A stretch of DNA of 57,086 nt from Minisyncoccia bacterium (GTDB lineage: Bacteria; Patescibacteriota; Minisyncoccia; Phycocordibacterales; UBA5272), in NCBI GenBank assembly GCA_038256975.1, contig JBBSJU010000001.1, positions 1 to 57,086 on the forward strand, read 5' to 3'. This document shows, piece after piece, positions 1,049 to 3,004 of this stretch. Position numbers and translations under genes: made by a program. Under the pieces are notes generated by a model, which was not told the origin of the DNA, ran no database searches, and saw only the letters and a program-made list of their open reading frames with translations. The number at the start of each line of letters is the position of its first letter. Within the stretch, counting starts at the first letter, position 1.

Positions 1049-1363
1049 TATGTATCTCTTCTGCCTTTATTCTACCATCAAAACAAAAGTTTAAATTAGA
1101 AGTATGCACTTTTTAAACAAACATATTTTGGTCACAGATAATATCTGCACGTCGCTCCGAAGAATCTTTTACTTTAACTCGTCTATTTTGGTCACCCATA
1201 ATTTTCTGACAAAAATTTGTTCGACCCCAGCTCGCGGTTTTTGCCTTTCGTTGCACTCAAACAAAAACATCGTTCATTCAGCGGAATGATCTACTGGGTC
1301 CGCTTCACAAAAACTAAAAAAGCTAATGAAGATAGCTTTTTCTTCACGTTTTTGTGCGGGATA

Positions 1364-1453
1364 AGAGAATCTCGTCTTACAGACGCAGTACAGGTTTCCC
1401 ATTTTCTCAAAGGAGAGCTTTTCGAAAATATGGGAGAACCTTTTCAATTCTCT
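1364..1453. repeat. 90-bp structured tRNA-trailer element, copy A
   Basis: Ungapped 66/90 match to 1664..1753 with compensatory changes in three stems. Confidence 0.75.
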
Positions 1454-1473
1454 GCAAATACTTCGTTTTATTG

Positions 1474-1544
1474 TGCGGGATAAGAGAATCGAACTCTTGT
1501 CCCCTGCTTGGAAGGCAGGTATTCTACCACTAAACCAATCCCGC
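1474..1544 (-). tRNA. tRNA-Gly (TCC)
   Basis: gcgggattggtttagtggtagaata-cctgc-cTTCCaa-gcagg-ggacaagagttcgattctcttatcccgca cloverleaf, anticodon TCC; CCA not encoded. Confidence 0.95.
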
Positions 1545-1663
1545 GATAGGCACATACTACTACAGTTCTAAATCTTTTTCTAGTTTTTACAGCATCTGGA
1601 TTCGATTCTTACCCAGTAGGTGATTGTGCTCAGTCACAGGATCAGTACGGGTTCAGTTTTAGG

Positions 1664-1753
1664 AGGGATTCTCGCCTTACAGGCGCTGTGCACCTTTTCT
1701 ATTTTCTCAAAGCAGAGCTTCTCAAAAATAAAGAAAAGGTTCTTCGAATCCCT
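1664..1753. repeat. 90-bp structured tRNA-trailer element, copy B
   Basis: Homologous to 1364..1453; outer stem agggattc/gaatccct matches the T-arm of the adjacent tRNA-Pro. Confidence 0.75.
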
Positions 1754-1779
1754 GACGAATGTGAAATTGTTCACATTCT

Positions 1780-1840
1780 CACTCCGACAAATACGTAAAA
1801 ACCCCTAAAATATGGGGGTTTTTACGTATTTGTCGGAGTG
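1780..1840. repeat. 26-bp perfect inverted repeat overlapping the tRNA-Pro 3' end (terminator-like)
   Basis: cactccgacaaatacgtaaaaacccc (1780-1805) / ggggtttttacgtatttgtcggagtg (1815-1840). Confidence 0.85.
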
Positions 1841-1905
1841 CAGGGATTCGAACCCTGAGTCTTTGGTACCCAAAACCAAAATGTTAGCCGTTACACCACA
1901 CTCCG
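1833..1905 (-). tRNA. tRNA-Pro (TGG)
   Basis: cggagtgtggtgtaacggctaacatt-ttggt-ttTGGgt-accaa-agactcagggttcgaatccctgcactccga. Confidence 0.93.
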
Positions 1906-2600: not shown

Positions 2601-2784
2601 AAGAGAATCTTTTCTTGTGGGAACAGTACAGGTTTCTGATTTATGTTTTGGTCACAGATATTTTCTCGCCGTCGCTCCGAAAATTCCGCGACCCCGGCTC
2701 AGTATTTTGCATTGGGATGCAAAATATACTTCCGCCTCACAAACGCTAAAATCTTCGAGTAGTCGGAGATTTTTAACGCGTTTG

Positions 2785-2855
2785 TGCGGGTAGGGAGAAT
2801 CGAACTCCCGTCTCATCCTTGGCAAGGACGTGTTCTACCACTAAACCATACCCGC
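2785..2855 (-). tRNA. tRNA-Gly (GCC)
   Basis: gcgggtatggtttagtggtagaaca-cgtcc-ttGCCaa-ggatg-agacgggagttcgattctccctacccgca. Confidence 0.95.
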
Positions 2856-2929: not shown

Positions 2930-3004
2930 GCTCCTGTGGTGAAATGGATATCACAATGGTCTTCGGAACCATTATTGGGGGTTCGAATCCCTCCGGGAGC
3001 ACCA
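2930..3004 (+). tRNA. tRNA-Arg (TCG)
   Basis: gctcctgtggtgaaatggatatcaca-atggt-ctTCGga-accat-tattgggggttcgaatccctccgggagcacca; CCA encoded. Confidence 0.95.

What the first reader, a model, noticed from the sequence alone, without database searches (positions are those of the whole stretch)
1364..1753. Covarying 90-bp structured element whose closing stem copies the neighbouring tRNA's T-arm
Seen: 1364-1453 and 1664-1753 align without gaps (66/90 by hand count). The differences concentrate in stems and preserve pairing: outer agagaat/attctct versus agggattc/gaatccct; small hairpin cgtct-tac-agacg versus cgcct-tac-aggcg; long stem aggtttcccat/atgggagaacct versus accttttct/agaaaaggt. The core attttctcaaag.agagctt.tc.aaaata is nearly invariant. 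Each outer stem equals the T-arm sequence of the adjacent tRNA (Gly: agagaatc; Pro: agggattc). A partial third copy (agagaatc-N14-cagtacaggtttc, 2602-2636) lies behind tRNA-Gly(GCC). Inference: a structure under selection with tRNA-specific arms, such as a tRNA-targeted mini mobile element, or a cis/antisense RNA addressing each tRNA. I do not recognise it as a known family.
Basis: partly seen in the sequence, partly recalled or inferred. Interest (0 to 1): 0.78.

Follow-up and report, generated by a model that had tools for sequence, protein, structure and literature searches.

The report
tRNA-mimicking insertion modules behind tRNA genes
Small structured DNA modules carry copies of the neighbouring tRNA gene's end on both flanks, fold like a tRNA stem, and sit behind many tRNA genes in one group of tiny bacteria; no known family or enzyme explains them.

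Summary
The two 90-bp copies (74% identical) belong to a family with 9 full copies in this 683-kb genome. A covariance model finds it in 34 of 101 related genomes, with up to 33 matches per genome. It was found in 0 of 150 other genomes sampled across the phylum.

Each unit lies just downstream of a tRNA or tmRNA gene, on the tRNA's strand, which is the window's minus strand. Its left arm is an inverted copy of that tRNA's T loop and T stem. Its right arm is a direct repeat of tRNA positions about 57-73. Full units also carry a copy of the acceptor 5' strand plus a small hairpin, so the whole folds like a tRNA acceptor/T minihelix.

Covariation is strong. Rfam has no match. A congener has an empty site. 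Cores cluster by genome, not by tRNA, and one block has moved between two tRNA-Ser-type sites. G000 has no reverse transcriptase, Y1 or IS110 enzyme, and only one Xer-like recombinase.

Best reading: a non-autonomous mobile module living inside tRNA transcription units. The mechanism is unknown.

The parts
1832..1905 (-). tRNA-Pro(TGG), the gene whose 3' end is copied by the unit downstream of it
   Evidence: ARAGORN; Rfam tRNA 61.8 bits
1780..1840 (-). Spacer palindrome. It has 26-nt perfectly complementary arms around a 9-nt loop. The first arm in tRNA orientation is the tRNA-Pro acceptor 3' strand plus trailer. The second arm recreates the acceptor 5' strand.
   Evidence: Inverted repeat I1; context printed. 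Congeners lack this palindrome.
1663..1779 (-). Full type-A unit behind tRNA-Pro. In tRNA orientation it runs: small hairpin hp1 (about 1757-1778), left arm (inverted copy of T loop + T-stem 3' strand, about 1743-1754), long hairpin hp2 (about 1692-1740), small hairpin hp3 (about 1673-1685), right arm (about 1664-1671).
   Evidence: R1 match at 129.9 bits; structure and covariation
1473..1544 (-). tRNA-Gly(TCC), the gene whose 3' end is copied by the unit downstream of it
   Evidence: ARAGORN; Rfam tRNA 71.2 bits
1363..1473 (-). Type-A unit behind tRNA-Gly(TCC), a reduced form with no hp1 and no acceptor-5' copy.
   Evidence: R1 match at 97.6 bits; nhmmer. It is absent at the orthologous site of congener G003.
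1352..1371 (-). Right-arm direct repeat. It is a 20-nt perfect copy of 1471-1490: tRNA-Gly T-loop 3' part, T-stem 3' strand, acceptor 3' strand, discriminator and first trailer bases. With 4 mismatches the repeat extends to 30 nt (1342-1371 vs 1461-1490).
   Evidence: family D2, 87% over 30 nt; a single copy in G003
2601..2642 (-). Remnant of a third unit: 3' strand of hp2, a degenerate hp3, and a right arm of the Gly(TCC) type with no acceptor part
   Evidence: family D3, 76% over 42 nt; weak nhmmer hit with E=10
2784..2855 (-). tRNA-Gly(GCC). Its downstream flank (2643-2686) is homologous to the flank behind the Gly(TCC) unit (1123-1166).
   Evidence: (family D5, 82%)

Best explanation
The two copies are members of a family of small (about 120-180 bp) non-coding insertion modules. 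They live at the ends of tRNA and tmRNA genes in one order of Patescibacteria.

In tRNA orientation a full module has these parts:
- a spacer hairpin;
- a copy of the tRNA's acceptor 5' strand;
- a small hairpin (hp1);
- an inverted copy of the tRNA's T loop and T-stem 3' strand (left arm);
- a conserved two-hairpin core;
- a direct repeat of tRNA positions about 54/57-73 (right arm).

The tRNA gene itself stays intact. As a single strand the module folds into a tRNA-like acceptor/T helix whose T loop is replaced by the core.

My reading is that the spacer, left arm and core spread as a block between tRNA gene ends. The spread is by insertion or by break repair copied from a filled site, and it leaves the tRNA end duplicated. 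Because the modules sit inside tRNA transcription units, they are probably transcribed. The tRNA-like helix probably lets host RNase P and RNase Z cut them out, so neighbouring tRNAs still mature.

Shown: the architecture, the tracking of the tRNA, covariation, the copy-number pattern, one empty site, and one transferred block.

Inferred: transcription, processing, the way of moving, and how the left arm comes to match a new tRNA. For the last, I suggest re-templating of one hairpin arm on the other.
For: **Placement**
- 39 of 47 model matches in 39 loci have a same-strand tRNA or tmRNA within 250 nt upstream, 33 of them within 60 nt.
- 19 of 19 matches in 8 further loci lie in arrays headed by a tRNA.

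**Arms copy the cognate tRNA**
- Inverted 12-mer at least 10 nt exact: 27 of 33 cognate pairs against 55 of 1028 non-cognate pairs.
- Direct repeat at least 12 nt: 22 of 33 against 2 of 1028.
- Acceptor-5' copy at least 7 of 8: 16 of 33 against 5 of 1028.
- An independent pattern-derived set gives 30 of 46 against 47 of 2018, and 22 of 46 against 0 of 2018.

**Signs of insertion and spread**
- Congener G003 has the same tRNA-Gly(TCC) and the same downstream flank but no unit. G000 has 119 extra bp bounded by a 20-nt perfect repeat.
- G003 has no type-A match genome-wide, against 13 in G000. In the window's own family only 6 of 60 genomes have matches. Counts range from 1 to 33 per genome.
- Cores are 74.7% identical between different tRNAs of one genome (n=24). 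They are 53.3% identical between the same tRNA in different families (n=13). Background is 50.2% (n=476).
- G000 C2:76650-76812 is about 96% identical to the unit behind tRNA-Ser(GCT), including the spacer and the Ser(GCT)-specific left arm. It is nevertheless flanked by repeats of the tRNA-Ser(ACT) type.
- Exact tandem duplicates and one chimeric unit exist.

**Fold**
- Whole units fold as acceptor-like stem + hp1 + T-like stem enclosing hp2 and hp3, with z -6.8, -6.9 and -9.5.
- 41 of 42 pairs show compensatory change.

**Likely transcription**
- In three congeners tRNA-Pro and tRNA-Gly(TCC) are about 27-84 nt apart. In G000 the Pro unit lies between them.
- The only promoter-like site found there is upstream of tRNA-Pro.
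- G-U pairs outnumber A-C pairs 82 to 45 on the tRNA strand.
Against: - No enzyme that could move the modules was found in G000. Reverse transcriptase, Y1 transposase and IS110 DEDD each gave 0 matches. Nearly every genome searched has one Xer-like tyrosine recombinase whatever its unit count. TnpB, serine recombinases and HUH Rep proteins were not searched.
- Only one clean empty site was found. It could equally be a deletion between the direct repeats rather than an insertion. Downstream flanks at the other two loci compared were too diverged to use.
- Clustering of cores by genome can also come from gene conversion.
- In the one recent transfer the left arm travelled with the block. How arms come to match very different tRNAs is therefore not shown.
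- Order-wide conservation with heavy covariation and conserved junction bases is as typical of a working RNA as of selfish DNA.
- There is no expression evidence. The RNA runs laid on the region matched only tRNA genes, apparently of other organisms.
- The excess of G-U on the tRNA strand is modest, and the alignment was fitted on that strand.
Confidence: 0.55

Rival explanations
1. The modules are primarily working non-coding RNAs. In this reading a conserved structured RNA is presented on a tRNA-like acceptor/T scaffold, transcribed with the tRNA and released by tRNA-processing enzymes. It would act as a protein-binding RNA, as a decoy for factors that bind tRNA ends, or as a minihelix that can be CCA-tailed or charged. 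Copies would arise by local duplication and be kept alike by gene conversion.
For: - Covariation is strong in every helix, and junction bases are conserved across about 30 genera.
- The fold is tRNA-like.
- Units lie inside tRNA clusters on the tRNA strand.
- Some placements recur across families: tmRNA, Leu-GAG, Arg-CCT.
- In G000, units are rarer behind tRNA genes that encode CCA: 2 of 15 against 13 of 23, p=0.016. This would fit a need for RNase Z-type processing.
- The type-A core recurs as an internal domain of a longer RNA of about 200 nt.
Against: - Distribution is patchy: 0 matches against 13 within one genus, and 6 of 60 genomes in the window's family.
- Copy number ranges from 1 to 33.
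- The right arm copies non-conserved trailer DNA, which an RNA function would not need.
- Many units lack the acceptor part of the right arm and so cannot close the tRNA-like helix. Pro, tmRNA and Glu units in G000 are examples.
- Cores do not cluster by tRNA.
- The CCA bias did not reach significance in the other genomes' loci (p=0.22).
Confidence: 0.25
2. The module is a folded single-stranded DNA attachment site. The two inverted arms, about 75-200 nt apart, would fold into a duplex replica of the tRNA gene's T-loop-to-3'-end segment. A host recombinase, perhaps the single Xer-like enzyme, would integrate the small circle there. This is how CTX-type phages use folded hairpins at dif (recalled from memory, not from a call).
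For: - The integrated layout is target, short body, inverted arm, loop, direct arm.
- Tandem arrays occur.
- One tyrosine recombinase is present in 99 of 101 genomes.
- A three-way-junction fold encloses the cargo.
Against: - The target is not a dif site, and no recombinase binding motif was identified.
- The recombinase is equally present in genomes without units.
- Each unit would need both arms re-made for each tRNA.
- The excess of G-U pairs on one strand suggests RNA, though single-stranded DNA of that strand is not excluded.
Confidence: 0.08
3. The module is an RNA that acts on the tRNA itself. The left arm would be a guide complementary to the tRNA's T loop, T stem and acceptor 3' strand, and the right arm a spare copy of that segment. 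This is the layout of a trans-splicing or end-replacing ribozyme, or of a cis-antisense regulator of tRNA maturation.
For: - The left arm is a contiguous complement of tRNA positions 54-65, and up to about 73 in type B.
- The long form is ribozyme-sized, with several conserved junctions.
- The left arm travels with the core.
Against: - No known ribozyme family matches at E up to 10.
- The type-A core, about 75 nt, has no recognised catalytic motif.
- The left and right arms pair with each other in every predicted fold.
- The target region of a folded tRNA is tightly structured.
Confidence: 0.07
4. There is no element. The repeats would be by-products of palindromic terminators behind tRNA genes that grew by template switching, with chance similarity of their loops.
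For: The spacers are long perfect palindromes that include the tRNA 3' end. Template switching at quasi-palindromes is a known process (recalled from memory).
Against: The core of 75-200 nt is conserved in sequence and structure across about 30-40 genera. Within G000 the copies match the profile at E down to 1e-26. Chance and local growth cannot give that.
Confidence: 0.03

Closest known systems
Genomic islands and prophages that integrate into tRNA/tmRNA gene 3' ends by tyrosine integrases (recalled from memory)
   Same: The insert lies behind an intact tRNA or tmRNA gene. It is bounded by a direct repeat running from the T loop to the gene's 3' end or a few bases beyond. Arrays can form.
   Different: The insert is only 120-180 bp and encodes nothing. 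There is no integrase; each genome has one Xer-like recombinase. An inverted copy of the same tRNA segment lies inside the insert, and the conserved core sits between the inverted and direct copies, where an att core would be uninterrupted.
MITEs and REP-type structured intergenic repeats
   Same: Small, non-coding, multi-copy and hairpin-forming, with patchy copy number between close relatives and cores more alike within a genome.
   Different: The terminal inverted repeats are not constant. They are copies of whichever tRNA lies next door. The duplication is 17-30 nt of a defined gene segment rather than a short fixed target-site duplication. No parent transposase was found.
CTX-type IMEX elements, whose single-stranded DNA folds two inverted att arms into a duplex target mimic (recalled from memory)
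   Same: Two inverted copies of the target separated by a structured loop of about 75-200 nt. The integrated order is target, body, inverted arm, loop, direct arm. Tandem copies occur. No element-encoded recombinase is present.
   Different: The target is a tRNA gene end, not dif. The body is tens of bases, not a phage genome. The arms differ at every locus.
tRNA-like RNAs built on an acceptor/T minihelix, such as the tmRNA tRNA-like domain, mascRNA and YrlA (recalled from memory)
   Same: An acceptor-like stem stacked on a T-like stem, with the D/anticodon part replaced (here by hp1). RNase P, RNase Z and the CCA-adding enzyme are plausible processors (fold).
   Different: The T loop is replaced by a 75-200 nt insert. 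The stems are exact copies of the adjacent tRNA, including trailer DNA. There are many copies per genome, one kind per tRNA. Neither the Rfam tRNA model nor ARAGORN calls them.
Guide-bearing RNAs of mobile elements, such as the group I intron internal guide, TnpB/IscB omega RNA and IS110 bridge RNA (recalled from memory)
   Same: A conserved scaffold joined to a locus-specific segment that matches the insertion target. The left arm is a contiguous complement of the target.
   Different: There is no Rfam match to group I introns at E up to 10. There is no IS110 or Y1 enzyme in G000. The tRNA is not interrupted. The target is duplicated, which those systems do not do.

Membership tests
Any Rfam 15 family | Covariance-model score at or above the family's gathering score | tested here: not met
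   Apart from tRNA genes (and one tmRNA in L096), no match reached its gathering score. This holds for type A (E up to 10), type B (E up to 1), long-form and other loci (E up to 0.001), and long forms again (E up to 10).
tRNA / pseudo-tRNA | Cloverleaf with D arm, anticodon arm and 7-nt T loop | tested here: not met
   ARAGORN and the Rfam tRNA model call only the 4 true tRNAs in the window. The units have one hairpin in place of the D and anticodon arms, and a 75-nt insert in place of the T loop.
tRNA-like minihelix | Acceptor-like stem continuous with a T-like stem on the 3' strand | tested here: met
   Minimum-free-energy folds of three full units give a 9-bp acceptor-like stem plus a T-like stem, z -6.8 to -9.5. 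The stems equal those of the cognate tRNA. This does not hold for units that lack the acceptor part: Pro, tmRNA and Glu in G000.
MITE | Constant terminal inverted repeats shared by all copies | tested here: not met
   The arms differ at every locus and match the adjacent tRNA.
MITE | Short target-site duplication of fixed length | tested here: not met
   The direct repeat is 17-30 nt. It starts in the T loop and ends at or up to about 16 nt past the tRNA end.
MITE | A related autonomous element with a transposase in the same genomes | tested here: inconclusive
   PF01797 and PF01548 gave 0 matches in G000. Y1-like proteins are present in G076, G084 and G098. DDE families and TnpB were not searched.
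Integrase-type tRNA-integrating element | Direct repeat of the tRNA 3' part flanking the insert | tested here: met
Integrase-type tRNA-integrating element | Element-encoded tyrosine or serine integrase | tested here: not met
   The units have no coding capacity. PF00589 gives a single Xer-like match per genome in most of the 101 genomes, regardless of unit count. Serine recombinases were not searched.
IMEX (Xer-exploiting element) | Integration at dif with XerC/XerD binding arms | not tested
   No dif site was defined for these genomes. The target here is a tRNA gene end.
IS110 bridge-RNA element | DEDD recombinase (PF01548) next to or in the same genome as the RNA | tested here: not met
   0 of 5 genomes had a match, including the three richest in units.
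Retron or other reverse-transcriptase-dependent element | Reverse transcriptase gene | tested here: not met
   PF00078 gave 0 matches in G000, G076 and G084. It is present in G003, which has no type-A unit.
RNase P RNA | Match to RF00010 | tested here: not met
   The genome's RNase P RNA is elsewhere (C1:131733-132100, 119 bits). The units do not match the model. Short resemblances seen by eye are the two strands of hp2.

The most novel reading that the evidence does not exclude
This is a protein-independent, RNA-based parasite or helper of tRNA genes. A ribozyme-sized RNA (long form about 200 nt; the 90-bp copies would be its minimal domain) carries a guide arm complementary to the 3' third of a particular tRNA, plus a spare copy of that third. 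It would use tRNA-like ends to be processed by the host. It would either home into tRNA genes by RNA-guided or break-repair copying without any enzyme of its own, or exchange or repair damaged tRNA 3' ends in trans.
Probability: 0.12. Interest if true: 0.95.

Novelty: new variant of a known kind. Interest (0 to 1): 0.8.

Why it matters
These genomes are among the smallest known for bacteria. Even so, G000 carries 13 type-A and 10 type-B model matches. By a separate repeat test, 16 of its 39 tRNA/tmRNA genes have a unit-like copy of their own 3' end downstream.

- If the modules are mobile, they show a new way of targeting tRNA genes safely. The gene end is duplicated, and the insert disguises itself as a tRNA-like helix that the host's own tRNA-processing enzymes could remove. 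No element-encoded enzyme is apparent.
- If they are working RNAs, they are a large undescribed RNA family of about 75-200 nt with strong covariation, tied to tRNA biology in organisms that cannot yet be grown alone.

Either way, tRNA and tRNA-fragment annotation in Patescibacteria will be confused by them. They also mark sites where recombination and island insertion occur.

Tried and rejected
- **Expression.** One search for sequencing runs and one laying of reads (one likely source DNA run, one related DNA run, two metatranscriptomes, all kept as contigs). The RNA runs covered only tRNA-gene stretches, with several mismatches, so apparently from other organisms. Nothing can be said about transcription of the units. 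No joint skipping a unit was seen in the DNA runs.
- **RNase P RNA relationship.** I suspected it from short motifs. It is rejected: the true gene is elsewhere, and the motifs are the two strands of hp2.
- **Group I intron or known small ribozyme.** No Rfam match even at E up to 10.
- **The unit as the far end of a gene-carrying island.** In G000 C5 the Arg(TCT)-type unit lies 5.8 kb from its tRNA. The stretch between holds a Cap15-like gene, a deaminase-methyltransferase and no integrase. However, a degenerate copy of the tRNA end sits directly before the unit. The island is therefore better read as a separate insertion between array members.
- **More empty sites.** At the tRNA-Asn, Leu(CAA) and Ser(ACT) loci the downstream flanks of congeners were not alignable.
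- **First register-based count of arm identity.** It under-counted because of 1-2 nt shifts, so I replaced it with the longest-common-substring test.
- **Apparent lack of a tRNA near many pattern hits.** A long form explains many of these: its tRNA would lie beyond the 300-nt flank. This was not checked hit by hit. 12 of 42 strong hits also had no tRNA within 200 nt and were not examined.
- **Literature.** Six full-text searches listed nothing describing such elements. Only listings and abstract starts were seen, and no paper was read. One search failed on a formatting rule.
Full report
**1. What is in the window**

ARAGORN finds four tRNA genes: Gly(TCC) at 1473-1544 (-), Pro(TGG) at 1832-1905 (-), Gly(GCC) at 2784-2855 (-) and Arg(TCG) at 2930-3004 (+). 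A third stretch, 2601-2642, matches the first 42 nt at 76%.

Each copy lies just downstream of a tRNA gene on the minus strand. Two features were not in the finding:
- A 20-nt perfect direct repeat (1352-1371 = 1471-1490). It copies the last 20 bases of the tRNA-Gly(TCC) region: T-loop 3' part, T-stem 3' strand, acceptor 3' strand, discriminator and first trailer bases. With 4 mismatches it extends to 30 nt.
- A 26-nt perfect palindrome (1780-1805 / 1815-1840). Its arm nearest the tRNA is the tRNA-Pro acceptor 3' strand plus trailer.

Nearby genes encode an HU protein, a UPF0102/NERD nuclease-like protein, a CCA-adding enzyme with an HD domain, and RecJ.

**2. The family in this genome**

The window's assembly has 683 kb in 14 contigs, with 38 tRNA genes and one tmRNA gene. 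A profile of the two copies finds 9 full copies, with E from 5e-26 to 9e-11.

The other two, on C5 and C14, are preceded by degenerate copies of a tRNA 3' end.

In tRNA orientation a full unit reads:
1. the tRNA 3' end;
2. a spacer hairpin, either a long palindrome that includes the acceptor 3' strand or a GCGAAGC mini-hairpin;
3. a copy of the acceptor 5' strand;
4. AG, then hairpin hp1 (9 bp, variable sequence), then CGTG;
5. the left arm, an inverted copy of the T loop plus T-stem 3' strand;
6. the long hairpin hp2;
7. the junction GTACWG;
8. hairpin hp3, with loop and closing bases CTGTAAG;
9. the right arm, a direct copy of tRNA positions about 54/57-73.

The Gly(TCC) unit in the window is a reduced form without hp1 or the acceptor-5' copy.

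**3. Structure**
- On the 9 copies, 87.0% of cells pair against 74.2% in shuffles. Of 42 pairs, 22 changed on both sides. No shuffle of 500 reached this, and partners slid by 1-3 columns pair at 39-57%.
- On 47 model-aligned copies from about 30 genomes, 90.9% pair against 62.4%. Of 42 pairs, 41 changed on both sides, and slid partners pair at 37-52%. That alignment is fitted to the model, so it leans toward the structure.
- G-U pairs on the tRNA strand number 82. A-C pairs, which would be G-U on the other strand, number 45.
- Three full units folded with their flanks give an acceptor-like stem, hp1, and a T-like stem enclosing hp2 and hp3, with z -6.8, -6.9 and -9.5.

The fold is therefore a tRNA-like acceptor/T helix. 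The D and anticodon arms are replaced by hp1, and the T loop by a 75-nt two-hairpin core.

**4. Distribution**

A covariance model (R1) matches 34 of 101 related genomes, in 30 of 48 genera. In the window's own family only 6 of 60 genomes match. Counts run from 1 to 33 per genome. G000 has 13 matches and its congener G003 has 0 (85% complete). None of 150 other genomes sampled across the phylum matched at E up to 1e-5.

Their record titles name Paceibacterota/Parcubacteria-group candidates (Nomura-, Zambryski-, Taylor- and Yonath-bacteria). Many MAGs are labelled Saccharibacteria, and one contig is labelled Spirosoma.

Related genomes are not independent, so these counts describe the spread and are not a statistical test.

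**5. Association with tRNAs, and arm tracking**
- In 39 loci, 39 of 47 matches have a same-strand tRNA or tmRNA within 250 nt upstream. 33 of those are within 60 nt and 6 are second members of arrays. The other 8 have no such tRNA within 250 nt.
- In 8 further loci chosen for clustered hits, 19 of 19 matches lie in arrays headed by a tRNA.
- For the 33 adjacent pairs:
  - The inverted 12-mer is at least 10 nt exact in 27, against 55 of 1028 non-cognate pairings.
  - The direct repeat is at least 12 of 17 nt in 22, against 2 of 1028.
  - The acceptor-5' copy is at least 7 of 8 in 16, against 5 of 1028.
- In the pattern-derived set, 46 of 117 matches with enough upstream sequence had an adjacent tRNA. 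Of these, 30 of 46 and 22 of 46 passed the first two tests above, against 47 of 2018 and 0 of 2018 for non-cognate pairs.
- Among strong model hits in that set, 30 of 42 had the tRNA and 12 did not. Among weak hits only 9 of 44 did.
- Many of the weak hits are a long form, described in section 8. Its tRNA would lie outside the 300-nt flank. I did not confirm this for each hit.

**6. Evidence that the modules come and go**
- G003 has tRNA-Gly(TCC) followed directly by the same downstream flank. G000 has 119 extra bases bounded by the 20-nt repeat. This is either an insertion with duplication or a precise loss between the repeats.
- In G001, G002 and G003, tRNA-Pro and tRNA-Gly(TCC) are about 84, 27 and 54 nt apart. 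In G000 they are 287 nt apart, with the palindrome and the Pro unit between them. G001 may keep a decayed 3' piece of a unit there; I saw this by eye in the alignment.
- Cores are 74.7% identical between different tRNAs in one genome (n=24). They are 53.3% identical between the same tRNA in different families (n=13), and 50.2% otherwise (n=476).
- In G000, C2:76650-76812 is about 96% identical to the unit behind tRNA-Ser(GCT). Identity starts right after the tRNA end and stops inside the right arm. The left arm is Ser(GCT)-specific, but both flanking repeats are of the Ser(ACT) type. So the spacer, left arm and core moved, or were copied, as a block into a similar target.
- Exact tandem duplicates exist, and one unit has its left arm from one tRNA and its right arm from another. 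Both point to recombination between units.

**7. What could move them**

G000 has no match to reverse transcriptase (PF00078), Y1 transposase (PF01797) or IS110 DEDD (PF01548). PF00589 gives one Xer-like recombinase in nearly every one of 101 genomes, with no relation to unit count. Y1-like proteins occur in three unit-rich genomes but not in G000. TnpB, serine recombinases, HUH Rep and DDE families were not searched. No enzyme is therefore tied to the family.

**8. Wider family, seen in passing**

*Type B.* By a repeat test, 16 of 39 tRNA/tmRNA genes in G000 have a copy of their own 3' end downstream, inverted or direct, of at least 11 nt. Several of these enclose a different core, type B: Val-TAC, Tyr, Trp, Ser-GCT, Ser-TGA and Leu-TAA. 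In type B the left arm is a contiguous inverted copy with no hp1.
- A model of type B (R2) matches 60 of 101 related genomes (40 of 48 genera), with up to 21 per genome, 10 in G000 and 2 in G003.
- Of 30 matches examined, 22 have an upstream same-strand tRNA or tmRNA. Of these 22, the inverted arm is at least 10 nt in 19 and the direct repeat at least 12 nt in 12.

*Long form.* A form of about 200 nt has the type-A core as an internal domain of type B. It has no Rfam match at E up to 10.

*Mirror-image form.* The type-A core also occurs upstream of tRNA genes, preceded by a duplicated copy of the tRNA's 5' end. In the one G000 case I read closely, before tRNA-Ser(GGA), the core sits in the D loop of that copy (C1:124546-124660). 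In a scan, 7 loci had a tRNA downstream of the core, and 5 of them held a copy of 17-25 nt of the tRNA 5' end upstream of it.

The cargo therefore sits at the T loop or, in at least one case, the D loop. Those are the two loops that meet at the tRNA elbow (established tRNA structure).

**9. How it most likely works**

*Shown:* the architecture, the tRNA-specific arms, covariation, patchy and genome-specific copy families, one empty site, and one transferred block.

*Inferred:*
- The units are transcribed. The Pro unit lies between two tRNA genes that are close neighbours in three congeners, and the only promoter-like site found is upstream of tRNA-Pro. Units also lie between co-oriented tRNA genes in other genomes.
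- The tRNA-like helix lets RNase P and RNase Z remove the unit, so flanking tRNAs mature. A weak hint is that in G000 units follow 13 of 23 tRNA genes without encoded CCA but only 2 of 15 with it (p=0.016). The loci of other genomes gave p=0.22.
- Spread is by copying spacer, left arm and core into another tRNA end, with the end duplicated. This fits repair of a break from a filled template, or an unknown insertion reaction.
- The left arm is later re-templated on the right arm within the hairpin. That would explain near-perfect arm complementarity at unrelated tRNAs carrying closely related cores. For example, the Gly and Asn units have 92% identical cores but quite different arms. This last step is my proposal and is untested.

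The rival readings, with their evidence, are listed separately. A working RNA and a mobile element are not mutually exclusive.

**10. Comparison with known systems**

The modules share the direct repeat of the tRNA 3' end with integrase-borne islands. They share small size and copy dynamics with MITEs, the inverted-arm/loop/direct-arm order with CTX-type folded att sites, and the acceptor/T helix with tRNA-like RNAs. They fail a defining feature of each:
- no integrase;
- no constant terminal repeats and no short fixed duplication;
- not at dif;
- no cloverleaf;
- no Rfam match.

Six literature searches listed nothing similar. Only listings and abstract starts were seen, so this does not prove absence from print.

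**Verdict**

This is a real and abundant structured element with tRNA-specific arms that is absent from Rfam 15. Most likely it is a non-autonomous mobile module of tRNA operons that mimics a tRNA helix. The mechanism is open.

Noticed in passing
G000 C5:19271-19377, C7:1394-1513, C7:3624-3702, C1:150551-150659, C5:29814-29933, C8:26270-26420 (outside the window): A second cargo family, type B, has the same bracket of tRNA-derived arms. Its left arm is a contiguous inverted copy of the tRNA 3' end with no hp1. Model R2 matches 60 of 101 related genomes. Of 30 matches examined, 22 have an upstream tRNA or tmRNA. No Rfam match.
   Followed up: yes
L133:220-457, L120:167-406, L162:171-382 (public contigs): A long form of about 200 nt in which the type-A core (hp2 + hp3) is an internal domain of the type-B RNA, again closed by tRNA-type arms. 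No Rfam match at E up to 10. It is ribozyme-sized, with several conserved junctions.
   Followed up: partly
G000 C1:124546-124660, before tRNA-Ser(GGA) at 124693-124782; also L080, L083, L130, L143, L179: A mirror-image arrangement: the type-A core lies upstream of a tRNA gene and is preceded by a copy of the tRNA's 5' end. In the G000 case the core sits in the D loop of that copy. In the other five loci the scan found a 17-25 nt copy of the tRNA 5' end upstream of the core.
   Followed up: partly
G000 C7:14044-14200, behind tRNA-Lys(CTT): A possible third cargo type between an imperfect inverted arm and an 11-nt direct repeat of the tRNA-Lys 3' end.
   Followed up: no
G000 C2:76650-76812: A type-B unit about 96% identical to the one behind tRNA-Ser(GCT), including the spacer and the Ser(GCT)-specific left arm. 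It is flanked by Ser(ACT)-type repeats, 1.3 kb from tRNA-Ser(ACT).
   Followed up: yes
G000 C5:21146-26946 (L076 1147-6947): 5.8 kb separate tRNA-Arg(TCT) from its Arg-specific unit, whereas the two are 48 nt apart in G001. The stretch holds a Cap15-like gene (cyclic-dinucleotide receptor plus TM helices), a deaminase-methyltransferase fusion and several ORFs with no Pfam match, but no integrase.
   Followed up: partly
G000 C2:75206-75293; also G001 and G002 (L054, L055, L057): ARAGORN calls a tRNA-Ser with anticodon ACT, conserved in three congeners. An A at the first anticodon position is unusual for a bacterial tRNA-Ser.
   Followed up: no
window 1124-1142, 1184-1202, 2644-2662: A 19-nt motif (TATTTTGGTCACAGATAAT and variants) occurs three times in the flanks downstream of the two tRNA-Gly genes. 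These flanks are themselves homologous: 1123-1166 vs 2643-2686 at 82% (families D5 and D6).
   Followed up: no
Spacers in L014, L018, L020, L026, L034, L062, L064, L065: In many units the spacer between the tRNA and the unit is not a long palindrome but a short stem around the mini-hairpin GCGAAGC or GTGAAGC.
   Followed up: no
G084 loci L058, L059, L060 (sequence after the units): Another short repeat (AGTCGGTAATCAATA-like, next to C-rich runs) follows several arrays in genome G084.
   Followed up: no
G000, all tRNA genes: Units follow 13 of 23 tRNA genes without encoded CCA but only 2 of 15 with it (Fisher p=0.016). In loci of other genomes the figures are 34 of 44 against 5 of 9 (p=0.22).
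   Followed up: partly
L087 (contig titled Spirosoma sp. MAG): This is the one pattern hit outside Patescibacteria-type titles. The flanking sequence looks protein-coding and lacks the unit's other parts, so it is probably a chance match.
   Followed up: no
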